In this document: positions 193 through 55,293 of the stretch, piece after piece
Numbering within the stretch: position 1 is the first letter of the stretch
Layout: the number at the start of each line of letters is the position of its first letter
Source of the DNA: an uncultured Nitrospirota bacterium
GTDB lineage: Bacteria > Nitrospirota > Thermodesulfovibrionia > Thermodesulfovibrionales > CALJEL01
NCBI GenBank assembly: GCA_947085365.1
Contig: CAMTWD010000070.1
Coordinates: 1-55,293 of the forward strand
Length of the DNA: 55,293 nt
Reading direction: 5' to 3'
Program-made: the position numbers and the translations under genes
Notes under the pieces: model-generated
The model's database searches: none
Told to the model about the DNA's origin: nothing
Seen by the model: the letters and a program-made list of their open reading frames with translations, nothing else

Positions 193-202
193 ATGACACC
201 TC

Positions 203-5228: not shown

Positions 5229-5231
5229 CTT

Positions 5232-6014
5232 TTAATTTCTCTCCCCTTTCCATTTTACCTCATTGTGTTTTTCCTCCCACACCTCTATACATCCAAAGCC
5301 CTGGCTGTTTTTGGAGCCCAGGCCTGATTCAAAGGCCATCCTGAACAGTTCCTCTGGAAGTTCAAGTTGATAAAGACCATCCCATCCTTTTATCACTGTA
5401 TTCTTGTAGATTACTATCCTCTCATTCCTTGAACTGACCCTGTAGGGCTTCACGCTTCCGCCCTCAATATCCCTGCCCGTCCATGTTCGGACCTTCCTCT
5501 GGAGATTCCTGATTATGAGGGATTCAAAATCCTTCTCAAAGGGATTGTAGTAATAGGTCTTCTTTCTGCCATCAGGTGTAAGGAGGGTGCTGTAAACAGT
5601 AATTGGAGAAATCGCCTTAACAATGATTTTTTCTTTATAGGCTGGGACAGGCTCAACCTCTACAGCTACAGGTGTCAATGTCTCTCCTGCAAGACAGACG
5701 GTTCCCCATCTCAAGAGATTTGACGCAAAGGACTGAAGAAATTCGTTTAGAGGAGAAGATATTATAACTGTGATAGATCCTTGAAGAAATATCCTACCAT
5801 CTTCCACTCTGGCACCCTTCTCGGGTATGAGGCGAGAAAAGGTGAAGAGTTTTATCCTTCTTTTACTCAATGGATCCTTGTGGCCTGAATCGTGTATCTT
5901 CTTTGAAAGGTATTCATCAAGGTGTCTGTAAATAAAGGCTTGAACAACACCATTATAATGGCATGGAAGGATAAGATAGGATTTCTCAGGTTGAAATCTT
6001 ATCTTAAGCCTCAA
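5232..6014 (-). CDS. cas6: Cas6 CRISPR RNA endoribonuclease
   Basis: 260 aa with FTFSRL and the C-terminal glycine-rich motif GLGSKNSQGFGCIEV. TTG start has an AAGGAGGG SD. Its GC is clearly higher than that of cas3. Confidence 0.85.
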   Translation of the reverse strand: MRLKIRFQPEKSYLILPCHYNGVVQAFIYRHLDEYLSKKIHDSGHKDPLSKRRIKLFTFSRLIPEKGARVEDGRIFLQGSITVIISSPLNEFLQSFASNLLRWGTVCLAGETLTPVAVEVEPVPAYKEKIIVKAISPITVYSTLLTPDGRKKTYYYNPFEKDFESLIIRNLQRKVRTWTGRDIEGGSVKPYRVSSRNERIVIYKNTVIKGWDGLYQLELPEELFRMAFESGLGSKNSQGFGCIEVWEEKHNEVKWKGERN

Positions 6015-6075
6015 AATCCCTCCTTGAAGGATAAATTAATTAATTTAATAATCTGATGTCAAGCCCAGTGGGCTT

Positions 6076-6090
6076 ACAATCGTGATGCCA
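6076..6090 (-). promoter_or_regulatory. sigma54-type -24/-12 element upstream of cas6 (TGGCATcacgaTTGT)
   Basis: Minus strand reads CTGGCATCACGATTGT. GG and TTG are at canonical spacing; the -12 C is replaced by T. It lies 76 nt upstream of the cas6 start. Confidence 0.35.
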
Positions 6091-6148
6091 GGTTATATCA
6101 GGGGGTGAAAAGGTATTCCCTCCAAAATATCCCTTTGCCGAGTATCTA

Positions 6149-9834: not shown

Positions 9835-10555
9835 ATCCTTTCAAAAATCCTTCTGGATCAATGGGTTTACCATTGGAGATCACCTCAAAATGGAGGTGAG
9901 GCCCTGTGCTGAGGCCGGTACTCCCAACAAGGGCAATCACCTCTCCCTCTGATACCTCCTGTCCCTGAACTACAAGGTTCAAACTGTTGTGTCCGTATCT
10001 GGTGATGAGTCCATTTCCATGATCAATCTCTACGAGATTACCATACCCATCTCTCCATCCACTAAAGGTAACCCTTCCTTTAAGGGGAGCCCTCACAGGA
10101 GAACCTGGAGGTGCTGTTATGTCTATGCCTTTATGAAATGACCAGAGCCCTGTAACAGGATGTACCCTCATCCCAAAACCAGAACTGATCCTTCCCTGAA
10201 CAGGAAGAAGAGGTAACCTTCCTGGATTGGTAGAGGGGTAAGAGTTCCAGGAACCCTCTGTCCTGATCTGACCATCATTCCTTCTCATTAATTCCCTCTC
10301 AATAGCAGATCCAAGTCCAATACCCCTCTCAGCAAGGACCCTCGAAAGCTCAAGATCAAAAAGGGATGTATAGATATCCTTCTGAAGCCCTCCCTCGGCA
10401 AGGGTCGTTCTCCTCATTGCCTTAAGGAGTTCGTATAAAAAGAGGGATTCCAGCTCCCTCGAGACAACCTTAATTGCCTCTCCTTTTGCCTCACCACCAA
10501 TCCTTGGATCCCTGTTAATGGGGTTGTTTAAACCATTATTCGGAATTATCTTCAT
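9824..10555 (-). CDS. flgJ: FlgJ-like rod-binding domain fused to an M23 (LytM) peptidase
   Basis: N-terminal SRELESLFLYELLKAMRRT (rod-binding domain). C-terminal HKGIDI...GYGNLVEIDHGNGLITRYGHNS...GSTGLSTGPHLHFEV (M23 motifs). Confidence 0.8.
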   Translation of the reverse strand: MKIIPNNGLNNPINRDPRIGGEAKGEAIKVVSRELESLFLYELLKAMRRTTLAEGGLQKDIYTSLFDLELSRVLAERGIGLGSAIERELMRRNDGQIRTEGSWNSYPSTNPGRLPLLPVQGRISSGFGMRVHPVTGLWSFHKGIDITAPPGSPVRAPLKGRVTFSGWRDGYGNLVEIDHGNGLITRYGHNSLNLVVQGQEVSEGEVIALVGSTGLSTGPHLHFEVISNGKPIDPEGFLKGLKG

Positions 10556-10559
10556 AATA

Positions 10560-11654
10560 CTATATAATCTCTATCTCTGCCCTGAGGGCACCTGCCTCTT
10601 TAAGGGCCTGAAGTATTGCTATAAGGTCCCTTGGGGTGACTCCAAGGGCATTGAGTGCCCTTACGATCTCGCCAAGGGTTGTCCCTGAGACCTCCAGAAG
10701 GGATGCCTTCTCCTCTTTTGCCTTAACCTCCATCTCAGGCACAACTACGGTCCCAGCACCTTCAGGTGCAAGGGGTGGAGGCTGGAAAACCTTATAGGTT
10801 GTCTTTATCTCGATAGTCAGATTCCCATGGGCAATGGCAACAGGAGAGAGTCTTACCTTCTCGCCTATAACGACAGTGCCCGTCCTTTCATTTATCACGA
10901 CCTTTGCCTTTGTATCCACTGCCACCTCCAGCTCTTCTATCATCATGATAAATTCCACCGGTCTTTCAATATATTTCTCAGGAATCTTTATCCTCACTGC
11001 AGATGAATCCTCTGCAATGGCTATATCTGGACCAAAGGTCTCATTTATTACCTTCTCTATCCTTGCTGATGTGGTGAAATCAGGTTTAAGAAGAAACAGC
11101 CTGAGAAAACCACTCTCAGAAAGTTTAAAGGGTGGTTCCTTCTCTATAATCACACCTCCCGGGACCTTTCCAACAGAAGGATGATTCTTCTGGATCCTGG
11201 TACCTCCACCACCACCTATAAAACCTCCGATAGAGACGGGCCCCTGGGCAAGGCCATATACCCTGCCATCAGGACCCTTAAGGGGGGTGAGGAGGAGGGT
11301 TCCACCTTGGAGACTCTTGGCATCTCCAATGGTGGATATGAAGGCATCAACCCTTATCCCTGGCTTGGGAAAAGGTGGAAGCTCTGCAGTAACGATTACT
11401 GCTGCAGTATTCCTTGCCTTAATGTCAGAGGGTCTCACGGTAATACCCATCTTCTGAAGCATATTCGCAATTGCCTGCATCGTGGCAATCCCCCTATCCC
11501 CTGTTCCATCAAGACCAACGACGAGCCCGTATCCAATGAGCTGATTTTCCCTGAACCCTTCAAACCTTGCAATATCCTTTATGCGTTCTGCCCAGGAGGG
11601 GGATATTAAAAGGGATAGGGAAAAGAAGATAATCAAGGTCAATCTCTCTGCCAT
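10560..11654 (-). CDS. flgI: Flagellar P-ring protein FlgI
   Basis: Signal peptide followed by ERIKDIARFEGFRENQLIGYGLVVGLDGTGD. Confidence 0.95.
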   Translation of the reverse strand: MAERLTLIIFFSLSLLISPSWAERIKDIARFEGFRENQLIGYGLVVGLDGTGDRGIATMQAIANMLQKMGITVRPSDIKARNTAAVIVTAELPPFPKPGIRVDAFISTIGDAKSLQGGTLLLTPLKGPDGRVYGLAQGPVSIGGFIGGGGGTRIQKNHPSVGKVPGGVIIEKEPPFKLSESGFLRLFLLKPDFTTSARIEKVINETFGPDIAIAEDSSAVRIKIPEKYIERPVEFIMMIEELEVAVDTKAKVVINERTGTVVIGEKVRLSPVAIAHGNLTIEIKTTYKVFQPPPLAPEGAGTVVVPEMEVKAKEEKASLLEVSGTTLGEIVRALNALGVTPRDLIAILQALKEAGALRAEIEII

Positions 11655-11673
11655 AACATCTCTCCCTCCATCC

Positions 11674-12315
11674 TCAGAAAGGCCATATACTGTTAAGTAT
11701 CCTCACAAGCCATCCTGGCCTCTGTTTATCATGAAGGACTCCCTTACCAACAAAATATATCTCCGTATCCGTAAGCCTTGTGCTCAGAATGGTATTATCA
11801 ACAGATATATCCTCAGGCCTTGCCATTCCCTTAAGAACAAGTATCTGTCTCTCATTATTAATCATTATCTCTTTTCTGGCCTCAAGAACGAGGTTACCAT
11901 TTGGCATCACCTCAACAACCTTCGCTGTTATTGTTCCAATAAGTCTGCCCCGCCTGCTCGTCTCACCCCTTCCCTGAAAGTCGTCTTTCATTCCACCCTT
12001 CACAAAGGGTGAAAAATTGAGTGGTGCACCAAAGAGTTCATCAATCCCGGTCTCGAGGCTCGAATCCCTCTTTGTGGATGTATTGGCCTTTCCGGAACCG
12101 GATATGTCCTCTATAACCCTGATTGTCACAATATCATTCAACCTCCTTGCCCTGGAATCCTCAAAAAGCCCTGCCCTCTCAACAAAGAGGGAATTCCTTG
12201 AGGAGGGCTCAGGGATCTCCTCTTTATAAACATATTTAGGTGGAGGAGGTGGAAGACTCGGTGTGGCACAAGAAGTAAGAAAAGATATTATTATGAATGC
12301 AAAGACCCCTCTCAT
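11674..12315 (-). CDS. flgH: Flagellar L-ring lipoprotein FlgH
   Basis: Lipobox FLTSC; the remainder of the translation is FlgH-like. Confidence 0.9.
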   Translation of the reverse strand: MRGVFAFIIISFLTSCATPSLPPPPPKYVYKEEIPEPSSRNSLFVERAGLFEDSRARRLNDIVTIRVIEDISGSGKANTSTKRDSSLETGIDELFGAPLNFSPFVKGGMKDDFQGRGETSRRGRLIGTITAKVVEVMPNGNLVLEARKEIMINNERQILVLKGMARPEDISVDNTILSTRLTDTEIYFVGKGVLHDKQRPGWLVRILNSIWPF

Positions 12316-12316
12316 C

Positions 12317-12979
12317 TCAGAACTCCACCTTCAGTGTATTTTCATCAATGAGAAGGCCTGATATAGGCCTCTTTGTCTGAAGGGTTACGGCCTTTGCAGG
12401 CTCTCCTATCCTTGCCTTCTCTTTGAGCTCACCTGGAAGGGAGATCCTGAATCCCTGGGATTCCACAACAATCAAAACCTTCTTCCCCTTAGGGACAAAG
12501 GCCCTTTCATCAACCATATTCTCTGTAAGAATCATATTCCATGAGAGGTTACGGTTCACAAACCTGCCAACCACCTGTCTCTTTTCCTTAAAGGCTCCGG
12601 GAGGAACCCTCCTCGGTTCTACCAATCTTAAAACTACATCATCCTCGGAGATGACCGCACCCCTCCTCAGGGGCCTTACGGTAAAGACCGCCCTCGTGAG
12701 GAGGGTAACCCTTCCCTTAGCATGGATAATCCTTCCGTCAGTAAGGGCTATCTTAAAGGAGATAAGGCCTGAGGGCTCTTCAATTACATCAACCCCTTTT
12801 ATTAAACTCCCATCAAGAGAGCCGGAGAATTTCAAATCCTCTATCCTTGCATCATCAACTCCGTATCTCTGGAGAAGGGCAGACCTGAGTATATCCTCAA
12901 TCTCTTGTTGAGATCCAGAGGCAGTGAGTGTTAGGTAAAGAAGGATTAGAAGGATTATCCTTAAACAGGACATGATCAC
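12317..12979 (-). CDS. flgA: P-ring assembly chaperone FlgA
   Basis: Signal peptide and a C-terminal SAF/FlgA-type region (VPKGKKVLIVVESQGFRISLPGELKEKARIGE). Position is between flgG and flgH. Confidence 0.75.
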   Translation of the reverse strand: MIMSCLRIILLILLYLTLTASGSQQEIEDILRSALLQRYGVDDARIEDLKFSGSLDGSLIKGVDVIEEPSGLISFKIALTDGRIIHAKGRVTLLTRAVFTVRPLRRGAVISEDDVVLRLVEPRRVPPGAFKEKRQVVGRFVNRNLSWNMILTENMVDERAFVPKGKKVLIVVESQGFRISLPGELKEKARIGEPAKAVTLQTKRPISGLLIDENTLKVEF

Positions 12980-12981
12980 CC

Positions 12982-13770
12982 CTATCTCTTGAGATTGTTT
13001 ATTGTCTGGAGCATCTCGTCAGAGGCCTGAATCGCCTTTGAATTTATCTCGTAGGCCCTCTGACTCACAATCATATTCACCATCTCCTCCACGATATTCA
13101 CATTACTCAGCTCAAGGAACCCCTGTGCAATGGTTCCCAGTCCTTCTGAACCAGGTATGCCTCTTATGGCCTCCCCTGAAGAGTCAGTGGGCATGTAGAG
13201 GTTCTTACCAATGGGCATAAGGCCTGCTGGATTGGCAAACTTTGTCAGCTCTATCTGACCCACCTCAACGGGTGTAGAACTTCCTGCCTGTAAAACCGTC
13301 ACCTTTCCGTCAGCACCAACAGTGATGTTCCTTGTGTCAGGTGGGATAGTGATCCCTGGTTCAAGGATGTATCCGTCAGAATTTACAATCCTTCCCTCCC
13401 TATCGAGCTTGAAGGCACCTGCCCTCGTGTAGGCAATCGTTCCATCAGGAAGGGTTACCTGAAAGAATCCATCCCCCTCTATCACCATATCAAGGCTATT
13501 TCCTGTCTGGATGAAATCACCCTGGGTAAAGATCTTCTGAACTGCCACAAGTTTAACACCGAGACCTATCATGATCCCTGAGGGTATCTGGAGACCTTCT
13601 GCAGAGGGAGCCCCTGGTGTCCTCAGGTTCTGGTACATGAGGTCCTGAAAGTCTGCCCTGCTCTTTTTAAAACCCACGGTGTTTACATTAGCGAGGTTAT
13701 TGGCTATTACATCAAGGTTTAATCTCTGTGCCTCCATTCCAGAGGCTGATATAAAGAGTGACCTCAGCAT
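12982..13770 (-). CDS. flgG: Distal rod protein FlgG
   Basis: [38 protein letters not shown] and C-terminal [20 protein letters not shown]. Confidence 0.9.
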
Positions 13771-13782
13771 ATCTCCCTCCTC

Positions 13783-13797
13783 CTGTTACTTCGCCAC
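13783..13797 (-). repeat. Dispersed repeat copy in the flgF-flgG intergenic spacer
   Basis: Plus strand ctgttacttcgccac. Confidence 0.85.
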
Positions 13798-13804
13798 TTT
13801 ACTG

Positions 13805-14509
13805 TTATATCCTCCCAAGGTCATTATTTATCTTCCCAGCTGCCTCATCGAGGGTCTGGATCGCCTTCTGAAAGGTCTCAAACTTCCTCAAACCTGCAAT
13901 CATCCTGACCATCTCCTTAATAATCTCCACATTTGACCCTTCAAGATAGCCCTGAAGCACCCCAGAAGAGGGCATTATCCCTGAAGTGGATTGGTAAAGG
14001 CCTTCTCCAACCCTGATGAGGTCTTCCGGTCTTTCAAACTCCACAATCCTTATCCTGTCCACAGGATCCCCATCAAGATATATACTTCCATCTCCCTTTA
14101 TCTCCACCTTCCCTTCAGGCAATCTTATAGGTCCCCTTTCGCCCATCACCTTCTTACCTGAAGAGGTGACAAGATATCCCTCCCTTGTCCTCCTTAAATC
14201 ACCTCTCCGGGTATAAAGACCTTCCTCAAGACTGATAAAACCCCTTCCCTCAATGGCGATATCAAGGTCATTATCTGTTTTTATAAAAAACCCGGGTCTT
14301 AGATCTATCTTCACATCTGCCAGATAGGTCATCCTCCTCTCATCAAAGGGATCATTATTTATGAGATAATCACTGAAGGAGAGGGTCCTTCCCTTAAAGC
14401 CAACTGTATTGGCATTGGAGATATTTTCAGATATAACCTCCATCTCCATCTGCTTCATCAGTGCTCCTGAGAGGGCTATGTATATTGCCTTGTGCATGCC
14501 ATAATACAA
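13805..14509 (-). CDS. flgF: Proximal rod protein FlgF
   Basis: MHKAIYIALSGALMKQMEMEVISENISNANTVGFK aligns with FlgF N-termini. The track start is TTG at 14509; the ATG at 14497 is the probable start. Confidence 0.85.
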   Translation of the reverse strand: MYYGMHKAIYIALSGALMKQMEMEVISENISNANTVGFKGRTLSFSDYLINNDPFDERRMTYLADVKIDLRPGFFIKTDNDLDIAIEGRGFISLEEGLYTRRGDLRRTREGYLVTSSGKKVMGERGPIRLPEGKVEIKGDGSIYLDGDPVDRIRIVEFERPEDLIRVGEGLYQSTSGIMPSSGVLQGYLEGSNVEIIKEMVRMIAGLRKFETFQKAIQTLDEAAGKINNDLGRI

Positions 14510-14524
14510 GCAAATATAATGCCA
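14510..14524 (-). promoter_or_regulatory. sigma54 promoter (TGGCATtatatTTGC) abutting the flgF start codon
   Basis: Minus strand reads CTGGCATTATATTTGCTTGTATTATGGCATG. It is a full GG-N10-GC consensus. The ATG lies 27 nt from the T of TGGCAT, with no SD. Confidence 0.55.
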
Positions 14525-14534
14525 GATCTGATTA

Positions 14535-14646
14535 GTGGCGAAGTAACAGTGAGGGTCAGGGATAGGGGGAGTAATCTTTTGAGATTAAAGGGAATTTTTA
14601 AAGGCCCTGAAAGACCCCTTAAAGACCGTCACTGTTACTTCGCCAC
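14535..14646. repeat. MITE-like 112-bp unit with perfect 18-bp terminal inverted repeats made of the dispersed repeat
   Basis: gtggcgaagtaacagtga at 14535-14552 and tcactgttacttcgccac at 14629-14646 flank about 76 bp. Confidence 0.8.
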
Positions 14647-14655
14647 CAACGGGAT

Positions 14656-14994
14656 TTATGACGGGAAATTCTTTCCTTCCTGATAATCTTTGCACACCCT
14701 GAGGATGAGCTCCACCTCTCCTGAGGGTATATGGAGTGACTCAGCAATCTCTCTTACAGAGAGCCCCTTTTTATAAAGGGTGATCACCTCGTAACTCCTC
14801 GTCTCCTTATCCCTGAGGCCCTCTGCCTTTTCAAGGAGTGTCTTCAGGAGCTCCACCTTATCATCAATCCTCTTCTCCATTGCCTTGAGCTCTGTCAGCT
14901 TCTTCTCTATCCTTTTTAAAATAAGGTCTGCCAGCTCCCTCATCTCCTTAACCTCTACAGGGATATCCTTCCTCCTGAGTATCCCTCTAAGCAT
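14656..14994 (-). CDS. Small coiled-coil protein with a C-terminal HTH (flagellar-operon associated, DUF2802-like?)
   Basis: 112 aa. The C-terminal LSVREIAESLHIPSGEVELILRV looks like an HTH. No firm family assignment. Confidence 0.4.
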   Translation of the reverse strand: MLRGILRRKDIPVEVKEMRELADLILKRIEKKLTELKAMEKRIDDKVELLKTLLEKAEGLRDKETRSYEVITLYKKGLSVREIAESLHIPSGEVELILRVCKDYQEGKNFPS

Positions 14995-15003
14995 CTGACC
15001 TCC

Positions 15004-15135
15004 TTAAACCTTTATATCCACTCGTGTCCCTTTCTTCTTCTCCACCTCTTGGGGCCTCTTCTTGGGTCTCTTCTTTGTATCCTTTGGAGGCTGTTCTGTC
15101 ACATTCCTTGTTGGATTTATAGACTCCACTTTCAT
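15004..15135 (-). CDS. Possible 43-aa highly basic small ORF
   Basis: Below the track cutoff. ATG at 15135 has GGAG 6 nt upstream. Translation is MKVESINPTRNVTEQPPKDTKKRPKKRPQEVEKKKGTRVDIKV. It fills the HDOD-to-next-gene gap. Confidence 0.2.
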   Translation of the reverse strand: MKVESINPTRNVTEQPPKDTKKRPKKRPQEVEKKKGTRVDIKV

Positions 15136-15138
15136 ATC

Positions 15139-15993
15139 TCACTCCAGAAAGGATAGCTTCTCTTCCAGATATAATCTCTTGAATTCTTCTGTAATGCTCC
15201 TCAGCTCGTCGGGAGAGATAAAAAGCGCCTTCCTCTTTTCATCCTCTCCAAGGTCGAGGTCATTCATTGGTCCCCTGTATCCAACACCAAGCTTGATGCA
15301 TATGGTGTCAGCAAGACTCACAACCCGGCAGAGGTCATCCTTATAGGGGTCATCTCCGGCCATGGCCTCACAGTTGTGGTGATCCCGGATGACATCACAA
15401 AGAAGGAGAGGAAATCCCCATTTCTCAGCAAGGATATACCCTGCATCAGTATGACTGAATCCAAAGTATTCCTTTTCGAGATTACTGAAAGGCACCCTCT
15501 CATGATATACCTGTTCTATAAGCATGGAAAATCTCTCCGGTTGACTGTTATCCATCAGGACCTTACCAATATCGTGAAGGAGACCTGCCACTGATGCCTC
15601 CTCCACCCTTGCCTTCTTTGTCCTGGCTGCTATAAGGGAGCTTGCAATGGATACACCAAGGCTGTGTTCCCATAGCTTCTGTTCCACTATCCCGAATCTC
15701 CTGTAGACCTCCCTTGTGGCAACCGCAAGGACCAGGTTTCTCAATGTCTTGAAACCCATTATGGAGATTGCCTCTGAAACAGTATCCACATTTTGCCTCA
15801 ATCCATAAAAGGCTGAATTGGCAATCTTCAATACCCTTGATGTCAAGGCCTGATCAGCCATTATCGCCTTCTGAATCTCATCAAGCCTCGTCCCTGGTGA
15901 CTCTATGAGCTTAATAACCTTGAGGGCCACATGGGGCACTGACGGGATATCGCAGGTAGAAAGGATGATCTTCTTCACCTCATCATGAATCAT
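15139..15993 (-). CDS. HDOD domain signalling protein
   Basis: VPHVALKVIKLIESP...IMADQALTSRVLKIANSAFYG...LLHDIGK is the HDOD pattern. Confidence 0.85.
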   Translation of the reverse strand: MIHDEVKKIILSTCDIPSVPHVALKVIKLIESPGTRLDEIQKAIMADQALTSRVLKIANSAFYGLRQNVDTVSEAISIMGFKTLRNLVLAVATREVYRRFGIVEQKLWEHSLGVSIASSLIAARTKKARVEEASVAGLLHDIGKVLMDNSQPERFSMLIEQVYHERVPFSNLEKEYFGFSHTDAGYILAEKWGFPLLLCDVIRDHHNCEAMAGDDPYKDDLCRVVSLADTICIKLGVGYRGPMNDLDLGEDEKRKALFISPDELRSITEEFKRLYLEEKLSFLE

Positions 15994-16430
15994 CCCTTAA
16001 AGCCTCCTCTTTCAAGGGTGACAAGAAGATTTCTGATATCCTCAAACCCGAAGGGTTTAATTATAGTCTTTATGCCCCTTTCTCTTATCAGCCTCTCGGT
16101 CTTGCTGTCAAATATTATTCCAGTAAGCAATACAAATCTATCTCTTAAATCAGGCATCATGGTTATGAGCCTGTCAAAGAATTCAATACCATCAATACCA
16201 GGCATATTCAGATCGCAGAAGACCGCAAAGTAAGGAGGGCCATAAACTCTCTGAAGTGCCAATTCTGCTGATGGAAGGGACTCCACAGAATAACCGAGCT
16301 CTAAAAGGAGAAGGCTTAGAACATCTGAAATATAGTCCTCATCATCAATAACGAGAATCCTCTTCATTGTCTGACCTGCTGTCACTTCGTTGTAAATTAT
16401 ACCATCAAAAGGGCCGTCATACATCTTCAT
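15990..16430 (-). CDS. CheY-like response regulator receiver protein
   Basis: KRILVIDDEDY...FCDLNMPGIDGIEF...IIKPF receiver motifs. Confidence 0.85.
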   Translation of the reverse strand: MKMYDGPFDGIIYNEVTAGQTMKRILVIDDEDYISDVLSLLLLELGYSVESLPSAELALQRVYGPPYFAVFCDLNMPGIDGIEFFDRLITMMPDLRDRFVLLTGIIFDSKTERLIRERGIKTIIKPFGFEDIRNLLVTLERGGFKG

Positions 16431-17247
16431 CCTCCATCAATGCCCTTAATCTCGTAATTGCCTGGCTGTGGATCTGGGATACCCTGCCCTCTGTAAGGCC
16501 GAGAACCTTTGCGATCTCCTTCATGGTGAGTTCATCCCAGTAATAAAGGGAGATAACGAGCCTTTCCCTCTCGGGAAGCCTCTCTATAATCGAGGCAATC
16601 CTCTCTTTCAGCCTCTTTTCTTCATAGAGCAGATCGGGTGTCTTGAAGTTCCTGTCTGGTATGGAATCCTGAAGGGAGAGTTCATCATCATACCTTGAAT
16701 CCGAAAAGTCCTCAAACCTCATTGTAATGGAGGAGGAGAGTTCACTAAGTAATTTGAAATACTCATCAAGAGAGATATTCAGTGCCTCTGCAAGCTCCTC
16801 TGCCTCTGGCATCCTGCCGAGCTTTGCCTTGAGATCTCTATGAGCTCCCCTCAAGGCCGTAAGTTTATTTCTCAATGACCTTGAGAAGGTCATGTTTGAC
16901 CTTATCTCATCGATCATGGCCCCTTTTATCCTCTGCTTCACAAAGGACTCAAGTTTACCGAGCTCCTCTTTATATCTCTCAAGGGACTCAAGCAGTCCGG
17001 TAATTCCTGCACTTATCAGATCATCTATAGTAAGCTGTGGTGGAAGCCTCCAGCTCAATCTCAAGGCAGTGTATTTAATATAGGGGAGGAAGGATCTGAT
17101 TACCTCCTCCACTGTTACCTCGCCACCTCCTGTTGGGGGTACACAGGGGGAAACTTTGTTTCCCCCTGTGAGACCCCCAGCTGTTACTTCGCCACCAGCT
17201 GTGACATCCTCTTTAACAGGATTATCCACAGCTATCCTCCACCCCAT
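16417..17247 (-). CDS. fliA: Flagellar sigma factor FliA (sigma28)
   Basis: Region 2 DDLISAGITGLLESLERYK and region 4 LTMKEIAKVLGLTEGRVSQIHSQA. The first 45 codons consist of repeat and hairpin modules. An alternative GTG start lies at 17112, with GAGG supplied by the repeat. Confidence 0.85.
   Translation of the reverse strand: MGWRIAVDNPVKEDVTAGGEVTAGGLTGGNKVSPCVPPTGGGEVTVEEVIRSFLPYIKYTALRLSWRLPPQLTIDDLISAGITGLLESLERYKEELGKLESFVKQRIKGAMIDEIRSNMTFSRSLRNKLTALRGAHRDLKAKLGRMPEAEELAEALNISLDEYFKLLSELSSSITMRFEDFSDSRYDDELSLQDSIPDRNFKTPDLLYEEKRLKERIASIIERLPERERLVISLYYWDELTMKEIAKVLGLTEGRVSQIHSQAITRLRALMEDEDV
17112..17195 (-). repeat. Composite repeat: core variant, 13-bp-stem GC hairpin, GAGACCCCCA, core copy
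   Basis: ctgttacctcgccac at 17112-17126. Hairpin cacagggggaaac-ttt-gtttccccctgtg at 17142-17170. ctgttacttcgccac at 17181-17195. Confidence 0.85.
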
Positions 17248-17262
17248 ATAAGATTATCCTCA

Positions 17263-17277
17263 CTGTTACCTCACTAC
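17263..17277 (-). repeat. Degenerate repeat copy at the flhG stop
   Basis: Plus strand ctgttacctcactac. Confidence 0.5.
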
Positions 17278-18114
17278 CTTCTGATTAGGGAGTTCCCTTC
17301 CAAGAGAATGGGAAAAGAGGCTTCTGATGAAAAACTGCAACCCGCCTTTGATTCGCCTTTCTCCATCGAGGAGTCTCTCTGCTATCTCTATCATTGCCTT
17401 AGAGGCAGGGGAATTGGGATAGAGGTCCACAACAGAACGCTGAGCCATAACAGCCTGCCTCACACTCTCATCCATCGGAATAAAACCTGTGTAATCAAGG
17501 GATATATTTAAAAATCTCTCTGCTGTTATAGAGAGCCTCCTGAAGATATCAAAGGCCTCGTCAGCATCCTTTGCTGAATTCACAACTATATGGAAATCCT
17601 TCTCCTGATATCTTGTAAAAAGGACCTTTATAATGGCATAGGCATCTGTGATGGCAGTAGGTTCAGGAGAGGTTATAACCACTATATCCTCTGCCGCAGT
17701 ACAGAAGAAGCCCACATTCTCGGATATCCCGGCTGGGGTATCTATGAGCAGGACATCTATGTCAGGTCTGAGGGAGTCAAAGCCCTCTATTATCCTTAAT
17801 CTCTGGAATTCATCAAGATTTGTCAGTTCCTGGATACCCGAACTGGCAGGAAGGATCTTTATGCCAAGGGGGCCCTCAATAATAATCTCCTCAAGCTCCT
17901 TCTCTCCGTTGAGGAAATGCTGGATTGTGTAACGGGGAGCAAGATGGAGAAGGACATCTATATTGCTGAGACCGAGGTCGGCATCGAATATCATCACCTT
18001 CCTACCGAGCCTCCTCATTGCAACAGCGAGGCCTGCGACGAGATTTGTCTTTCCAACTCCTCCCTTACCACTCGTTATGGCTATCGTCCTTATAGGTCTT
18101 TCAGGCATTAGCAC
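17266..18114 (-). CDS. flhG: FlhG (MinD/ParA-type flagellar number regulator)
   Basis: IAITSGKGGVGKTN deviant Walker A. It follows flhF. Confidence 0.85.
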   Translation of the reverse strand: MLMPERPIRTIAITSGKGGVGKTNLVAGLAVAMRRLGRKVMIFDADLGLSNIDVLLHLAPRYTIQHFLNGEKELEEIIIEGPLGIKILPASSGIQELTNLDEFQRLRIIEGFDSLRPDIDVLLIDTPAGISENVGFFCTAAEDIVVITSPEPTAITDAYAIIKVLFTRYQEKDFHIVVNSAKDADEAFDIFRRLSITAERFLNISLDYTGFIPMDESVRQAVMAQRSVVDLYPNSPASKAMIEIAERLLDGERRIKGGLQFFIRSLFSHSLGRELPNQKVVR

Positions 18115-50855: not shown

Positions 50856-52082
50856 CTAAACTATAAGAGAAAGGCCAGTGTATTCATCCGCATCGGGATC
50901 AACGGTATTTCCATAGGCATCCCTTCCGTAGAATCGGAAGACAAGGTGGGAAGGATCTATCGTGCCGTCTCCGCTCTGATTCTGTCTCAGGGTGAAATAT
51001 ACTGTGGCACTTCTGGCTGTAGAGTCGTATATAACCATCTTTGGCACTGGATAGGGCCTCACCTCTGTTTTAGGTAAAGGCAGACCCCAGTTATAGGGAC
51101 CGCCATGCCTCATATCCATTGACCATGATATAGACCAGTTGAATATATCTTCCACCGAGCCCCTGTCCATCTCTTTATCAAAATAGACAATCAATCTGAA
51201 GTCCTTCGAACTCCCTGGTGCTGAAAGGGCTGGGTCAAGGGAACTCAGAGGTGTTCCTGGTCCCTGTTTCATATCAAAGGCAAAGAGGGTATTTACAGAC
51301 CTTATCCTCGGCCTTCTTTTTCTGTAGATATAAGACCACAGCTCAAGGGCAAGGGCACTGTCAAGGCCTTCAAGGATCTTAACCTGTTCATCAGCCTTCT
51401 CAAATTCACCCACATCAGTATAAACAATACCCAGATCATAATAGGCATAGGCAAAATCCCTCTTTATCTCTATTGCCCTTTTAAAAGCCTTTATTGCCTC
51501 ACCATAGATCCCCTGCTTTGACCAAAGCAGACCTAAGGAATAGTGGGCACCGTAATTGTCAGGCTCATACCTCAATATCCTCTGGAAGGTCTCTTCAGCC
51601 TCTTTATATCTCTGAAGCTGTATATATGCCTGGCCAAGGGGATAGAGGTTGTCGGTGGATGGGTTTATCCTAACTGCCTTGAGATAATACTCCATTGCCT
51701 CATTGTATCTTTGTTGATCATACAGGATGTTGCCAATCTTTAGATATAGGAAATCAACTGTTATCTCTCCACCAAGTTTTGCGAAGAATAATCTTATTGC
51801 CTCCTCATAGACCTTAATTGCCTCTTCAGGCCTCTTCATCTTCAGATATGCCTGTGCCATGAAGTCATAGGCCTTCAGGCTATTTTCTGAATAGGGGTCA
51901 AAGGCTATTGCCCTCCTGAATTCCCTTACAGCATCGGAGTAAATACCCTTCTGGTAGAGTTCAATGCCCCTTGACAGGGCAGTTCCTGAAAGACCTGAAT
52001 AGGAACGGAGGGTATTGCTGAGAAGAGAAAATAGCTTATCCTCCCTTAAGGGCGAGGTAAGGGTCACTGGCAATGGATTCAT
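50856..52082 (-). CDS. TPR-repeat protein with a C-terminal Ig-like/unknown domain
   Basis: TPR repeats (AIKVYEEAI, AMEYYLKAV, AEETFQRIL, AIKAFKRAI). The N-terminal VTLTSPL comes from a degenerate repeat copy. Confidence 0.75.
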   Translation of the reverse strand: MNPLPVTLTSPLREDKLFSLLSNTLRSYSGLSGTALSRGIELYQKGIYSDAVREFRRAIAFDPYSENSLKAYDFMAQAYLKMKRPEEAIKVYEEAIRLFFAKLGGEITVDFLYLKIGNILYDQQRYNEAMEYYLKAVRINPSTDNLYPLGQAYIQLQRYKEAEETFQRILRYEPDNYGAHYSLGLLWSKQGIYGEAIKAFKRAIEIKRDFAYAYYDLGIVYTDVGEFEKADEQVKILEGLDSALALELWSYIYRKRRPRIRSVNTLFAFDMKQGPGTPLSSLDPALSAPGSSKDFRLIVYFDKEMDRGSVEDIFNWSISWSMDMRHGGPYNWGLPLPKTEVRPYPVPKMVIYDSTARSATVYFTLRQNQSGDGTIDPSHLVFRFYGRDAYGNTVDPDADEYTGLSLIV

Positions 52083-52233
52083 AATTTTTAATTCGGTTCT
52101 CTTTAATTAAAAATTTAATCATCTTCTCTTGTTTGGCGGCAAGATAACAGTGCGAGGTAACACTTTTGACTGAAATCAGCGTCAATTTTTTGACCAAAAG
52201 AGACCATTACAGGCCCTTCAGCCCATTGCAGAC

Positions 52234-52248
52234 TGGCACAGTTCTTGC
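52234..52248 (+). promoter_or_regulatory. Consensus sigma54 promoter (TGGCACagttcTTGC) facing the glycosyltransferase remnant
   Basis: Plus strand reads CTGGCACAGTTCTTGCTTT, about 19 nt upstream of the ATG at 52267. Confidence 0.5.
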
Positions 52249-52266
52249 TTTAATACTCTTATAAGG

Positions 52267-52722
52267 ATGTCTCAGAGGATAGCGAGGTAGTAGAGGATTT
52301 CAGTAATCTGTGTTTACAACAATAAAAAGATCTTTGAAGAATGCCTCCTGAAGAGTCTTGAGGCCCAAACCATTCACACTACTACTTTGCCACCTTACGA
52401 ACTGATCGCCTTAGATAATTCAGATCGCCTCTTTAGATCTGCCTCTATTGCCCTTAATTACGGAGGATCAAAGGCAAAAGGAAGATACCTGCTCTTTGCC
52501 CATCAGGACATAGTCCTCTCTGACGAGAGGTTTTTAGAGAAGGCAGAGAGGCTCCTTGACTCTTTACCTGAAGTGGGAATCGCTGGAGTGGCTGGCGTGA
52601 ATGAGATGGTCATTGTAGATACAGGTTCTGAGGAGAGGACAAAGGATAGGATCGCCTATATCATGACAACGAGGAATTACTTTTATGTGAAACCTCTTCG
52701 AGTTGGAAGGCCTTTTTTGTGA
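52267..52722 (+). pseudogene. Family-2 glycosyltransferase remnant (in-frame TAG TAG at codons 8-9, and C-terminally truncated)
   Basis: ATG at 52267 gives MSQRIAR, then TAG TAG at 52288-52293, then in frame RISVICVYNNKKIFEECLLKSLEAQ...YELIALDNSD...LLFAHQDIVL (GT2 N-terminal pattern). It ends after about 150 codons, where composition changes. Confidence 0.5.
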
Positions 52723-53100
52723 CCTTTGTTCTCTAAAGTTTTTCCAGAAAACCTGCGTTAAGAAGCGATTCAAAGATTGAGTAGAGTTGTCCAGTTGATA
52801 TGGTTTCGGACTGTGAAGTGATGTGTGCAGTAGAGTTCATTTTCCTTTTTAATGAAACATTAAATGGAAATTTCCAGTACTTGTAAGAAAGCCCTATGCC
52901 TTCAGATATAGGGAAAAGTGACTCACTCAAACCAAGCTAAAAAAGGCTGGTAAATCTGTTTCCTCTGCAAGGAGACTGGTGGGGACAAAAGTTCCCTGTC
53001 AGTAACGAGGCATTAGCAGACTCTGGCTTCGTTAATTAACCTCTGGAGTGGCTGTCCACGACAGCAAACACCTTTGGAGTGCCCTATTCAAGTCAGAGTT

Positions 53101-53145
53101 TTTCCCTGCAAAGGGAAACCACCACTAAAGCGCCAGCTTAGTGGT
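53101..53145 (-). terminator. Two adjacent hairpins just 3' of the PLD-NTPase gene
   Basis: accactaa-N9-ttagtggt at 53121-53145 and tttccct-gcaa-agggaaa at 53101-53118. There is no clear U-tract. Confidence 0.3.
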
Positions 53146-53154
53146 TGGGGGATG

Positions 53155-55185
53155 TCATAGTCCCAATCTTTTAATAAACCTTTTTATTTTGCTTGGTTTT
53201 TCTTCAATGAAATCAAAAAACTTATCCCTGTTTAAAATAAGTAATCCTTTGTCTTCAACCACAACCTCAGGAGGAAGATACAGAAGATAGTCATCTCTTT
53301 CCTTTTTCTCAAGGTCAAGGTTTACAACAATCTTTCCATCCCTTGGAAGTTCTTCAAAGATTTCTTTTTTCCTCATGTAAAGCATCCGCCATATGTTTTT
53401 CCCTCTTTCATAATAATCTCTCAATGGCTCTGGATTAAACCAAGCAGGCACTGAAATTCCTGTTTCATTAAAGTAGGACTTAAATATTTCTCTTCCGAGA
53501 CTTAAAAAATCTCCTTCCATCTTTACATTTTTAATTGCATCTTCAACTCTAAATACAAAATCTCTGAATAGGTCTGTCCCAAAATTTTCTCTTATCTCTT
53601 CAAAATGTTTTAATGCCTCTGCTTCCTTTGATAGGTCAAAGGAGTTGTTTAACTGGATATAATAAATCCGTTTTATAACCTGTGCATCGGACTGAAATGT
53701 TGTGTTAGTTGTTGCAATAACTGTTGGATGTTTCCCTATTAAAGTATTCGATATCTCCTTTATAAAACTTTCACCCATAAAAGGTTTTGATACATTTTTT
53801 GAAGAAAAGTAAGCTCTATCTATTTCGTCTACAAAGATTGGGCAAAGATTCTCCTCCTTTAAAAACTCTTCAATAACCTGAGGTGGAATCTCTTTGTAGG
53901 ATGAGATCGTTGTTCTTGTGTAATAGTGGTAATACTGCTCATTGTTTCCTATTGCGAGGCTTACAAATCTCAGAAGGTGAGTCTTCCCTGTGTTTGCCTT
54001 TCCTGCAATGAGCAGGAAAACAGGGATTTTATAAAGTAATTCTGTTCTGTTTCTAAACTGCTTTCTTATGAACCACAAAAAAGGAGACATAAATGAGTAA
54101 AGAATAACCTCAAAGACTCTTTTTGGCGTTTGTTTATCTTCCTGCGAAGTAAATATCTCATAGGATTCAATAAATCTATCAAGTAAATTGAGCTTTTCCT
54201 TAAGTATATCTGGAGAGGCTGGTCTGCCAAACCTTTCAGCCCATTCTCCTCTTATTGCAACCAGACTTCCGTCATCCCATCTGAGGTCTATTCTCTGGTC
54301 TTCAAACTCAGTTCTTGTCTTTCTTTTTGTAAGAATCTGGATTATTCTATCCTTTTGTTTTTCAATCTCCAATTTAGGAAGAATTACTCCACGGGCATCT
54401 CTCTCTTTTCTTTTTATGATTAGATCGATTAACTCTCTTTCCTTCCTGATAATTCTAATCTCTTCATCCTTTCTCTTCTCTGCAGACTCAAGCATTTCTA
54501 TTGCTTCTTTAATCTCTTTTGCTGGAATTACAGGATTCTGTTGTCTTATCTCATCAGCAATCTCCTTTACAACATTTAAACTATCTTCTGGAACAATAAG
54601 GGTGACTTTGCCAGTTTTTAAGATCTTTTCCTTAAGGGATTGAGGGATAAAATCAATGCTTTTGCTGTAGATATTTCTGATTCTTTCAGCATAGTATTGG
54701 CACCACTGGGGATTAAAATTACTGTCATATCCGACAAGTTCTTCAAACTGTCTTCCCTCAAATGCAGACTGTGTGAAATTTGCTGAGCCAACAAAAACAA
54801 TTGAGAAGGCATCTTTTATGAGCCTGTAAATCTTTGAATGAATTCTCCATCCAATCGGTGCATATCTGATCTCAATATCTCCATGAGCAATCCTTTTCTG
54901 CGTTTCTTCGTCCAGCTCTTTGAGAAAGTCTTCCTGTGGTTCAGGGGAAAAATGAGTAAGAATTTCCCTGTCCTCTATCCCGAGGATTAAAAGAATCTTC
55001 TTAAAACCTTTCAATGTTTCAAAAAAGAATTTTGGAGAAGAGACATAGGTTACGACTTCTACTGTATCAAATCTTTCTGGATTAAAAAACTCCTTGAATC
55101 TTCCTGAAAACCTCTCGTTATTAAAAAGAATTGAGAGAGCCTCTTTCTGGGCAATAATCTCATTCTGTTTTTCAAAAAGATCCAT
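53155..55185 (-). CDS. PLD-family (HKD) nuclease domain fused to a P-loop NTPase (SF3/AAA-like)
   Basis: N-terminal IHSKIYRLIKDAFSIVFVGSANFT (HxK...GSxN). A central K/E/R-rich coiled coil. Walker A LLIAGKANTGKTHLL, Walker B PIFVDEIDRA, then VIATTNT. AT-rich, stand-alone gene. Confidence 0.7.
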   Translation of the reverse strand: MDLFEKQNEIIAQKEALSILFNNERFSGRFKEFFNPERFDTVEVVTYVSSPKFFFETLKGFKKILLILGIEDREILTHFSPEPQEDFLKELDEETQKRIAHGDIEIRYAPIGWRIHSKIYRLIKDAFSIVFVGSANFTQSAFEGRQFEELVGYDSNFNPQWCQYYAERIRNIYSKSIDFIPQSLKEKILKTGKVTLIVPEDSLNVVKEIADEIRQQNPVIPAKEIKEAIEMLESAEKRKDEEIRIIRKERELIDLIIKRKERDARGVILPKLEIEKQKDRIIQILTKRKTRTEFEDQRIDLRWDDGSLVAIRGEWAERFGRPASPDILKEKLNLLDRFIESYEIFTSQEDKQTPKRVFEVILYSFMSPFLWFIRKQFRNRTELLYKIPVFLLIAGKANTGKTHLLRFVSLAIGNNEQYYHYYTRTTISSYKEIPPQVIEEFLKEENLCPIFVDEIDRAYFSSKNVSKPFMGESFIKEISNTLIGKHPTVIATTNTTFQSDAQVIKRIYYIQLNNSFDLSKEAEALKHFEEIRENFGTDLFRDFVFRVEDAIKNVKMEGDFLSLGREIFKSYFNETGISVPAWFNPEPLRDYYERGKNIWRMLYMRKKEIFEELPRDGKIVVNLDLEKKERDDYLLYLPPEVVVEDKGLLILNRDKFFDFIEEKPSKIKRFIKRLGL

Positions 55186-55293
55186 AAAATATTATAAACA
55201 AATTGAGACGAATAAAGGGAGGTGCCGCATTAGATCATAAAAAATGTCCCCGAATCACCTCTGGTTAGATCAAAATTACTGTCCCTAAGTAAA

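What the first reader, a model, noticed from the sequence alone, without database searches (positions are those of the whole stretch)
53155..55185. Stand-alone PLD-nuclease / P-loop NTPase gene on an AT-rich segment: candidate single-gene defence or mobile-element function
The 676-aa protein combines an N-terminal HKD motif (IHSKIYRL...VGSANFT), a charged coiled coil, and a C-terminal NTPase. The NTPase has Walker A GKANTGKT, Walker B IFVDEID and an ATTN motif resembling SF3/AAA+ motif C. Nuclease-plus-NTPase single polypeptides are a recurrent design of anti-phage systems. The gene is AT-rich, free of the host repeat, lacks an SD (TATAAT lies 5 nt before the ATG), and sits next to a truncated host gene. 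All of this points to recent horizontal acquisition.
Basis: partly seen in the sequence, partly recalled or inferred. Interest (0 to 1): 0.65.

Follow-up and report, generated by a model that had tools for sequence, protein, structure and literature searches.

The report
Lone PLD-nuclease / SF3-like ATPase gene
A recently imported, stand-alone gene encodes a DNA-cutting (phospholipase-D-type) domain fused to a ring-helicase-like ATP motor; it belongs to a widespread but untested protein family that most likely acts as a methylase-free, ATP-driven restriction-type defence enzyme.

Summary
A 676-aa ORF (53155-55185, minus strand) carries one HKD nuclease motif, a charged helical linker and a P-loop NTPase. 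All catalytic residues are invariant in 40 homologues. The N-domain is a BfiI/NgoFVII-type PLD nuclease (Pfam above cut-off; fold matches NgoAVII-R, BfiI, SauUSI, Zucchini). The C-half is too divergent for sequence methods. By fold it is closest to SF3/D5-type hexameric helicases (MPXV E5, vaccinia D5, ASFV PrimPol, SCCmec Cch, AAV Rep40).

The protein belongs to an uncharacterised family, Pfam PF27394 'Aq_aa27' (about 270 clusters at 50% identity, many phyla, a few plasmids, no phages). The two modules were only found fused. No neighbour recurs across lineages, so the gene is stand-alone.

Recent horizontal acquisition is well supported. The gene is 35% GC against a 46% core and lacks the host's 46-copy repeat. 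A 96%-identical copy sits in an unrelated context, sharing only the ORF plus 38 nt.

A defence role is plausible but untested. The family has no significant PADLOC v2 model match and I found no literature on it. Stable synteny in two genera tempers the defence reading. Verdict: new variant of the PLD-nuclease-plus-motor restriction design; moderate interest.

The parts
53155..55185 (-). Complete ORF of 676 aa: a PLD(HKD) nuclease fused to an SF3-like NTPase. It belongs to the PF27394 'Aq_aa27' family.
54661..55137 (-). N-terminal PLD nuclease domain (residues ~17-175), BfiI/NgoFVII type, with a single HKD motif per chain.
   Evidence: Pfam PF09565 E 2.3e-10 above cut-off. Foldseek matches to 4rct NgoAVII-R, 2c1l BfiI, 7clg SauUSI and 4gel Zucchini.
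54772..54843 (-). Catalytic HxK...GSxN motif (residues 115-138: IHSKIYRL...VGSANFT).
   Evidence: H116, S117, K118, G133, S134, A135 and N136 are invariant in 40 homologues.
54316..54642 (-). Charged helical linker (residues ~182-290), modelled as long helices of moderate confidence.
54028..54300 (-). Small beta-sheet plus two long helices that precede the P-loop (residues ~296-386). Possibly a collar or oligomerisation element (inferred).
   Evidence: F338, Y342, E359 and L362 are invariant.
53641..54024 (-). P-loop NTPase core (residues ~388-515). Walker A is at 53980-54003, Walker B at 53818-53838, the sensor-1 'ATTN' at 53704-53715, and the candidate Arg finger is R506.
   Evidence: Pfam AAA 27.2 bits against a cut-off of 21.2. 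Invariant G395, G400, K401, D453, E454, N494 and R506. Fold closest to SF3 helicases.
53158..53634 (-). C-terminal helical bundle plus a small alpha/beta (winged-helix-like) domain (residues ~518-676). The last 4 codons found in relatives are replaced here.
55186..55223 (-). The 38 nt upstream of the ATG that travel with the gene. They contain TATAAT (55191-55196) 5 nt before the ATG and no SD. The mRNA is probably leaderless (inferred).
55226..55293 (.). Multi-copy repeat that starts where homology to the sister copy ends. Depth is 469 against 12.8, and many different sequences join it. It is probably an IS or MITE end and the reason the contig stops here.
52935..53158 (+). Hairpin-rich element that abuts and slightly truncates the gene's 3' end. 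Its depth in metagenomes is 2-5 times the baseline. The + strand folds with z = -3.4. No Rfam match.
52387..52722 (+). Truncated family-2 glycosyltransferase ORF (111 aa, matching profile positions 30-102 of 210).

Best explanation
The gene encodes a stand-alone, ATP-dependent DNA endonuclease that most likely restricts invading DNA (phage or plasmid) without a partner methyltransferase.

Proposed mechanism:
1. The C-terminal SF3/D5-like P-loop module oligomerises, probably into a ring, on DNA. It uses ATP to translocate or unwind. (Inferred from fold and invariant motifs.)
2. Each chain has only one HKD motif. Two N-terminal PLD domains must therefore pair to form one active site, as in Nuc, BfiI, NgoAVII-R and SauUSI. 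(The single motif is shown; the pairing follows from established PLD-nuclease structures.)
3. The paired PLD site cuts DNA through a metal-independent phospho-histidine intermediate. The long charged helical linker couples the motor state to nuclease pairing. (Inferred.)
4. How self is distinguished from foreign DNA is unknown. No known modification reader or sequence-recognition domain is detectable.

In this genome the gene is a recent import from a low-GC Thermodesulfovibrio lineage. It is probably expressed from its own -10 box as a leaderless mRNA.
For: Nuclease half:
- PF09565 is above cut-off.
- Fold matches to restriction and nucleic-acid PLD nucleases.
- HxK/GSxN/E are invariant.

Motor half:
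- Walker A, Walker B, sensor-1 N and R506 are invariant.
- The C-terminal model is confident (pLDDT 87, pTM 0.84).
- Its best PDB matches are MPXV E5, SCCmec Cch, ASFV PrimPol, vaccinia D5, AAV Rep40 and SV40 LTag.
- Its best viral-library matches are D5/P4-type primase-helicases.

Architecture and context:
- The fusion is obligate.
- No methyltransferase or other partner recurs among 150 neighbours.
- Copies occur beside a helicase-MTase-helicase cluster on plasmid pATS1, beside a type I R-M system, on an Arcobacter plasmid, and next to an IS.

Horizontal mobility is shown.

Precedent: N-terminal BfiI-like PLD nucleases with swappable C-terminal modules are proven single-gene, methylase-less defence enzymes (END nucleases and SauUSI; PMC12191111). 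PLD nucleases driven by ATP motors are also known (CglI/NgoAVII; PMC5861437).
Against: - There is no experimental datum for any family member.
- There is no significant match to any of the 5027 PADLOC v2 models.
- I could not compute a statistical defence-island enrichment. Many neighbourhoods are plainly housekeeping.
- The ~34% clade sits in one fixed housekeeping context on 14 Thermodesulfovibrio contigs.
- The ~23% clade is syntenic in more than 20 Limosilactobacillus species. This looks like long vertical inheritance.
- No sensor domain was identified.
- TM-scores to SF3 helicases are modest (0.34-0.37). No SF3 Pfam family matches by sequence.
Confidence: 0.5

Rival explanations
1. It is a cellular accessory nuclease-helicase for DNA repair, recombination or stalled-fork processing. 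It would be kept for the host's own DNA metabolism and occasionally transferred.
For: - Stable single context between housekeeping genes on 14 Thermodesulfovibrio contigs.
- Synteny across more than 20 Limosilactobacillus species.
- Neighbours such as RecC/UvrD-like genes in Leptonema and an SbcCD-like pair in Arcobacter.
- One copy per genome.
Against: - Patchy distribution across phyla, with about 270 clusters at 50% identity.
- Plasmid copies exist.
- Foreign composition and absence of the host repeat in this window.
- Near-identical copies in unrelated sites.
- The PLD domain is of the restriction-enzyme type.
Confidence: 0.2
2. It is a replication or mobilisation protein of a plasmid or integrative element. 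An HKD nickase forming a covalent phospho-histidine link would be joined to an SF3 helicase, functionally parallel to the HUH-SF3 Rep proteins.
For: - SF3/D5-like and Cch-like folds are typical of replicative helicases of viruses and mobile elements.
- Copies on plasmids lie next to parAB/rep and on pATS1.
- The family is named after an ORF of Aquifex (Pfam name).
- PLD enzymes use covalent intermediates (established knowledge).
Against: - The plasmids carry their own Rep (Rep3+DnaB; replication initiation protein).
- Chromosomal copies have no integrase, origin-like repeats or other element genes around them.
- The family is absent from 50,697 phage records.
- No primase or origin-binding domain is present.
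Confidence: 0.12
3. It is a selfish single-gene mobile cassette that moves itself in a homing-like or transposon-like way, using its own nuclease and helicase.
For: Copies that are 96% and 77% identical lie in three unrelated chromosomal sites. The shared DNA is limited to the ORF plus 38 nt. One copy lies directly after tRNA-Arg.
Against: - No terminal inverted or direct repeats and no target duplications in four loci.
- One copy per genome in 80 genomes.
- Fixed position in other clades.
- In the window both borders coincide with other repeated elements, which can explain the rearrangement.
Confidence: 0.05
4. It is an RNA-directed nuclease-motor, as in Zucchini or Mokosh logic, that degrades foreign transcripts rather than DNA.
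For: By profile, the PLD domain's best sequence matches in the PDB are Zucchini/MitoPLD and NucT. Zucchini also gives the best TM-score for the domain (0.52).
Against: - The Pfam assignment is to the restriction-endonuclease PLD family.
- SF3-type motors are DNA helicases in the structures matched.
- There is no match to the Mokosh models in PADLOC.
Confidence: 0.05

Closest known systems
SauUSI (type IV ATP-dependent restriction endonuclease, PDB 7CLG)
   Same: A single polypeptide with an N-terminal single-HKD PLD nuclease followed by an NTP-driven motor. No cognate methyltransferase. It was the top Foldseek hit for the full-length model.
   Different: The SauUSI motor is an SF2 helicase, and it carries a C-terminal DUF3427 5mC/5hmC reader. 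Here the motor is SF3/AAA+-like and no modification reader is detectable.
NgoAVII / CglI (R-protein PLD+B3 domain with an ATP-hydrolysing H/N-protein) and BfiI
   Same: The same PLD subfamily (PF09565; 4rct and 2c1l fold matches). In NgoAVII/CglI, nuclease action depends on ATP-driven translocation (PMC5861437).
   Different: Those systems are multi-subunit. They have a B3-like sequence reader, an SF2 DEAD-Z1 motor and an adjacent methyltransferase. None of these is present here.
END nucleases (END-PaCF1; PMC12191111)
   Same: A single-gene, methylase-less defence enzyme with an N-terminal BfiI-like PLD nuclease and a modular C-terminal domain. Also missed by PADLOC and DefenseFinder.
   Different: The END C-terminal domain is an inactive EndoIII sensor with no ATPase. 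Here the C-terminal half is an ATP motor.
D5/E5/P4-type SF3 primase-helicases, SCCmec Cch and AAV Rep40
   Same: The best fold matches for residues 296-676. They share a P-loop with sensor-1 Asn and a downstream Arg.
   Different: Those proteins are replicative helicases fused to primase, HUH or origin-binding domains. No such domain is present here. There is no sequence-level match to their Pfam families, and TM-scores are only 0.34-0.37.
Mokosh type II (MkoC) and DISARM DrmC / Azaca ZacB
   Same: Defence proteins that use a PLD nuclease, in Mokosh fused to a helicase.
   Different: The only match is a 16-40-residue HKD-motif stretch (ZacB E 1e-4, DrmC E 0.03). Domain order and helicase superfamily differ.

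Membership tests
PLD-superfamily nucleases, BfiI/NgoFVII subfamily (PF09565) | Single HxK(x)nGSxN motif with a conserved downstream acidic residue | tested here: met
   H116-S-K118, G133-S-A-N136 and E148 are invariant in 40 sequences.
PLD-superfamily nucleases, BfiI/NgoFVII subfamily (PF09565) | Profile match above the curated cut-off | tested here: met
   40.4 bits against 23.8, E 2.3e-10. 39 of 40 members match.
PLD-superfamily nucleases, BfiI/NgoFVII subfamily (PF09565) | Fold similarity to solved members | tested here: met
   4rct_A prob 1.0, rmsd 5.0 over 177 columns. 2c1l_A, 7clg and 4gel also match.
PLD-superfamily nucleases, BfiI/NgoFVII subfamily (PF09565) | Metal-independent DNA cleavage by a homodimeric active site | not testable with these tools
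   Needs biochemistry.
Type IIS R-M of the BfiI/NgoFVII kind | Adjacent cognate DNA methyltransferase | tested here: not met
   No MTase lies next to the gene in the window. None recurs among 150 neighbours.
Type IIS R-M of the BfiI/NgoFVII kind | C-terminal B3-like (pseudobarrel) DNA-recognition domain | tested here: not met
   The C-terminal half is a P-loop NTPase.
SF3 helicases | Walker A, Walker B, motif C (sensor-1 Asn) and a downstream Arg finger | tested here: met
   GKANTGKT 395-402, IFVDEID 450-456, ATTN 491-494 and R506, all invariant.
SF3 helicases | Motif B' beta-hairpin between Walker B and motif C | tested here: inconclusive
   The conserved G471-E472..K476..N480 segment exists. 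It is modelled as loop plus helix, not as a hairpin.
SF3 helicases | Fold closest to solved SF3 helicases | tested here: met
   The top PDB hits of the C-terminal model are E5, D5, PrimPol, Rep40 and LTag, plus Cch, with prob 1.0 and TM 0.34-0.37. Clamp loaders and classical AAA rank lower, with rmsd 16-22. The BFVD top 40 are mostly D5/P4-type.
SF3 helicases | Sequence-profile match to an SF3 family (D5_N, VirE, Parvo_NS1, PPV_E1_C and the like) | tested here: not met
   Only PF00004 AAA (27.2 bits) and generic AAA_14/16/22 families match at E<=1.
SF3 helicases | Hexameric ring with 3'-5' helicase activity | not testable with these tools
   Needs multimer modelling, cryo-EM and assays.
SauUSI-type type IV restriction enzymes | SF2 helicase motor and a DUF3427/SRA-like modified-base reader | tested here: not met
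   No SF2 or DUF3427 profile match.
Known or candidate defence systems in PADLOC-DB v2.0.0 | Significant full-length match to a system protein model | tested here: not met
   Best match is ZacB at E 1.4e-4 over 39 residues of the HKD motif.
Pfam PF27394 'Aq_aa27' | Precomputed Pfam hit on the product | tested here: met
   Listed for the window protein and essentially all homologues. C-terminal-only fragments carry it alone, so it covers the NTPase module. This Pfam entry is not in the local Pfam copy, so I could not read its description.
HUH-SF3 Rep / D5-type primase-helicase replication proteins | HUH endonuclease, AEP/Toprim primase or origin-binding domain N-terminal to the helicase | tested here: not met
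   The N-terminal domain is PLD.

The most novel reading that the evidence does not exclude
The HKD-SF3 fusion is a functional analogue of the HUH-SF3 Rep proteins. The PLD domain would nick DNA through a covalent phospho-histidine link and the SF3 ring would unwind from the nick. The single gene could then replicate, mobilise or home itself, or a minimal element. This would explain why only the ORF plus 38 nt is shared between unrelated sites.
Probability: 0.06. Interest if true: 0.9.

Novelty: new variant of a known kind. Interest (0 to 1): 0.5.

Why it matters
ATP-driven restriction enzymes and defence nucleases described so far use SF1/SF2 helicases, McrB-type AAA+ GTPases, or ABC/SMC ATPases as motors. 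A ring-helicase-like (SF3/D5-type) motor welded to a restriction-type PLD nuclease would add a new motor class to this repertoire.

It would also show replicative-helicase hardware, otherwise typical of viruses and mobile elements, re-used for DNA destruction.

The family is compact (one gene of about 2 kb). It is spread from thermophilic Nitrospirota to Bacillus relatives and gut lactobacilli. Mesophilic members are available, so testing is straightforward.

For this genome, the gene also marks a recent transfer between Thermodesulfovibrio lineages in hot-spring communities.

Tried and rejected
- A literature search for 'aq_aa27' returned only DOI-string noise. Searches for HKD or PLD together with SF3 helicase found nothing relevant except the CglI paper.
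- The NCBIfam and PHROGs scans gave nothing significant.
- PDB searches with the single sequence and with the family profile recovered only weak PLD hits. They found nothing for the NTPase.
- The Rfam scan of the window and a permissive scan of the flanks found no RNA family. The window has no tRNA.
- The search for terminal repeats or target duplications around four copies found only chance AT-rich matches. I therefore rejected the transposon-like reading.
- Exact-protein look-ups for the window protein, its TPR neighbour and the T. hydrogeniphilus homologue (P0005) were not on record. I could not see beyond the contig end or recover an empty site.
- The metagenome scan for close relatives gave only two short fragments.
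- The flanking repeats were not found in the fetched loci or in viral contigs.
- No RNA-seq run holds the gene, so the leaderless start is untested.
- The search for the C-terminal module with other N-terminal domains found none.
- The P-type ATPase lying downstream in three Thermodesulfovibrionales loci was considered as a partner and rejected. The proteins are only 35-44% identical to each other and are absent at other loci.
Full report
**1. Observation**

The ORF is real. It runs 53155..55185 on the minus strand, starts at ATG and encodes 676 aa.

The quoted motifs are at IHSKIYRL 115-122, VGSANFT 132-138, GKANTGKT 395-402, IFVDEID 450-456 and ATTN 491-494.

Residues 195-295 hold 24 K/R and 23 D/E out of 101. 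AlphaFold2 models them as long helices.

TATAAT lies at 55191-55196 on the minus strand, 5 nt before the ATG, with no Shine-Dalgarno sequence.

The gene is 35.3% GC. The core of the window is 46.0%.

The 'host repeat' is a dispersed unit, GTGGCGARGTAACAGT. It has 46 copies (0.02 expected), all between 6148 and 51772. There are none in 51773-55293.

The neighbouring ORF 52387-52722 is a fragment of a family-2 glycosyltransferase. It matches profile positions 30-102 of 210.

Contigs from two independent studies cross the 3' junction without mismatch (X1 record 5 and X3 record 17). The arrangement is therefore not a chimera.

**2. What the protein is**

Pfam places residues 56-170 in RE_NgoFVII (PF09565) at 40.4 bits against a cut-off of 23.8. 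It places residues 391-507 in AAA (PF00004) at 27.2 bits against 21.2.

PADLOC v2, NCBIfam and PHROGs give nothing beyond short HKD-motif matches.

About 100 full-length homologues at 30-95% identity were found. All are about 670-700 aa, and nearly all carry a precomputed Pfam PF27394 'Aq_aa27'. An exhaustive profile search gives 1087 proteins at E<=1e-3 and 270 clusters at E<=1e-30, nearly all with the same architecture.

In a 40-sequence alignment the following are invariant: H116, S117, K118, G133, S134, A135, N136, E148, G395, G400, K401, D453, E454, G471, K476, N494 and R506. E472 and N480 are nearly invariant. Both halves are therefore under selection as active enzymes.

The full-length AlphaFold2 model has pLDDT 83.
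- The N-domain matches NgoAVII-R (4rct), BfiI (2c1l), SauUSI (7clg) and Zucchini (4gel).
- The C-half matches ASFV PrimPol, MPXV E5, AAV Rep40 and papillomavirus E1 ahead of clamp loaders and classical AAA proteins.
- In the viral library the top hits are D5/P4-type primase-helicases.

A separate model of residues 296-676 has pLDDT 87 and pTM 0.84. It ranks MPXV E5, SCCmec Cch, ASFV PrimPol, vaccinia D5, Rep40 and SV40 LTag first. TM-scores are 0.34-0.37 and rmsd 7-13 Å. AAA+ clamp loaders and Msp1/katanin follow with rmsd 16-22 Å.

Sequence profiles do not reach any SF3 family. The SF3 assignment is therefore fold-level and moderately confident.

The expected B' hairpin is not clearly modelled.

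PF27394 corresponds to the C-terminal module, because C-only fragments carry it alone. That module was never found with a different N-terminal domain.

**3. Context and mobility**

The window ends 108 nt upstream of the gene, so wider context had to come from relatives. All are lone genes:

| Copy | Context |
|---|---|
| Thermodesulfovibrio TK110 (78% protein identity) | Directly after tRNA-Arg(CCT), between a lytic transglycosylase and a P-type ATPase |
| L008 (95% protein, 96% DNA identity) | Between an ABC ATPase and an aminotransferase |
| A Spirochaetota copy | Among signalling genes |
| An Arcobacter copy | On an 83-kb plasmid beside parAB |
| A Solibacillus copy | After an HTH gene and before an IS |

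Across 80 genomes there is one locus per genome.

Clustering all neighbours shows recurrent partners only within Limosilactobacillus, where a divergent (~23%) clade is syntenic in more than 20 species.

Among 150 flanking genes from other lineages, no Pfam or PADLOC family occurs more than twice.

Some neighbourhoods are defence-like. These include type I R-M beside a truncated copy, MADS components, SoFic, HepT/MNT and Tn7 TnsD/TniQ. Plasmid pATS1 has a helicase-methyltransferase-helicase cluster next to the gene.

Other neighbourhoods are plain housekeeping.

The ~34% clade common in Thermodesulfovibrio sits in one fixed site on 14 contigs.

The family occurs on 14 of 72,556 plasmid records and in none of 50,697 phage records.

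**4. Recent acquisition in this genome**

DNA shared with L008 is limited to 53159-55223, that is the ORF plus 38 nt upstream. Identity is 96% and the flanks are unrelated.

In L008 and TK110 the gene (34% GC) matches its flanks (35-36%). Here it is 11 points below the core. The donor is therefore a low-GC Thermodesulfovibrio and this organism is the recipient.

The window copy has lost the last four codons seen in relatives (...LGLSK*). The flank supplies its stop codon.

Both borders coincide with other repeated DNA:
- 55226-55293 has about 37-fold excess depth and many alternative joins. It is probably an IS or MITE end, and the reason the contig stops.
- The hairpin-rich 52935-53158 element is 2-5 times over-represented.

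No terminal repeats or target duplications belong to the gene itself. I do not read it as a self-transposing unit.

The -10 box abutting the ATG is conserved in eight Nitrospirota copies. Bacillota, Spirochaetota and Campylobacterota copies have ordinary GGAGG sites. This suggests leaderless expression in the Nitrospirota lineage. No RNA data were available.

**5. Mechanism**

The best-supported reading is an ATP-dependent, methylase-independent DNA endonuclease.
- A single HKD motif per chain requires pairing of two PLD domains, as established for Nuc, BfiI, NgoAVII-R and SauUSI.
- The SF3-like module would assemble on DNA and burn ATP to translocate or unwind.
- The charged helical linker would couple the two activities.

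There are precedents.
- SauUSI is a PLD nuclease plus SF2 motor with no methylase.
- NgoAVII/CglI are PLD nucleases activated by ATP-driven translocation (PMC5861437).
- END nucleases are proven single-gene, methylase-less defence enzymes. They have a BfiI-like N-terminal PLD and a swappable C-terminal domain, and defence predictors also miss them (PMC12191111).

Shown here: domain identities, conserved catalytic residues, the stand-alone status and horizontal transfer.

Inferred: oligomeric state, DNA as the substrate, coupling between the modules, the defence role and how self is distinguished from foreign DNA.

**6. Rivals**

- A cellular repair or fork-processing enzyme. Stable synteny in two genera favours it. 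Patchy distribution, plasmid carriage and foreign composition count against it.
- A Rep-like nickase-helicase of mobile elements. The SF3 and Cch fold and plasmid carriage favour it. Against it, the plasmids have their own Rep, the chromosomal copies are isolated, and phages lack the family.
- A self-mobile cassette. It has no ends and occurs in single copy.
- An RNA-directed nuclease with Zucchini-like affinity.

**7. Novelty**

I found no paper describing a PLD/HKD nuclease fused to an SF3-type ATPase. No PADLOC v2 model covers it.

The family is nevertheless already catalogued, as Pfam PF27394 and under NCBI names such as 'phospholipase D family protein' and 'restriction endonuclease PLD domain-containing protein'.

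It is best described as a new variant of the known design of a PLD nuclease plus an NTP motor. It has a new motor class and no recognisable sensor. Interest is moderate at 0.5. The family is testable and widespread, but its function remains a prediction.

Noticed in passing
window 1-6147: The other end of the contig is also AT-rich (32-35% GC) and lacks the host repeat. It encodes Cas6 (5232-6014), a Cas3-like DEAD helicase (3558-5228), a nucleotidyltransferase (2585-3661) plus HEPN (2205-2588) pair, and an unassigned 488-aa protein (758-2224). All are on the minus strand.
   Followed up: partly
window 6148-51772: The dispersed ~21-nt repeat GTGGCGA[A/G]GTAACAGT occurs 46 times (0.02 expected). 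It appears in both orientations, often in tandem pairs in intergenic regions. It frequently lies beside a conserved GC hairpin, CACAGGGGGAAAnnnTTTCCCCCTGTG (9712, 17142, 31566, 40532).
   Followed up: partly
window 52935-53160 (+): This hairpin-rich 226-nt stretch folds much better than shuffled controls on the + strand (z = -3.4) but not on the - strand (z = -1.5). It has no Rfam match. Its depth in metagenome contigs is 2-5 times the baseline. It may be an unannotated structured RNA or a small repeat element.
   Followed up: partly
window 55226-55293: This is a high-copy repeat, with depth 469 against 12.8 in run X1, joined to many different sequences at 55225/6. It is probably the end of an IS or MITE and the cause of the contig break. 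It was not found in the fetched loci or in viral contigs.
   Followed up: partly
L001, L008, L009, L023, L028, L031, L036, L038 (upstream of the homologous genes): Nitrospirota copies of the gene all have TATAAT 4-6 nt before the ATG and no SD. This implies leaderless mRNAs. Copies in other phyla have canonical GGAGG sites.
   Followed up: partly
L055-L084 (Limosilactobacillus loci): A divergent clade (~23% identity, ~770 aa) is syntenic in more than 20 species. It lies beside a secreted DNA/RNA non-specific endonuclease-like gene and an amino-acid permease. In several species tblastn matches only the NTPase half.
   Followed up: partly
L089 (Athalassotoga plasmid pATS1) 1-8859: A DEAD/DEAH helicase, a ~990-aa DNA methyltransferase and an ATP-dependent helicase form a DISARM/BREX-like cluster. 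The cluster is divergently adjacent to the family member.
   Followed up: no
L004/L005 (Arcobacter plasmid) 10271-18094: Downstream of the homologue lies a minus-strand run of unannotated genes. It includes a 1372-aa protein and a cREC_REC-domain protein, and may be another conflict system.
   Followed up: no
L001 12047-14725, L023 5924-8569, L037 12830-15430: Three Thermodesulfovibrionales copies have a P-type cation ATPase downstream. In TK110 its ATG directly follows the stop codon. The ATPases are only 35-44% identical to each other, so this is probably coincidence or weak synteny.
   Followed up: yes
L006/L024 7445-7987 and equivalent: In Solibacillus and Lysinibacillus a 180-aa HTH_3 (XRE-type) gene ends 14 nt before the homologue. 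It may be a controller protein, as in some R-M systems.
   Followed up: no
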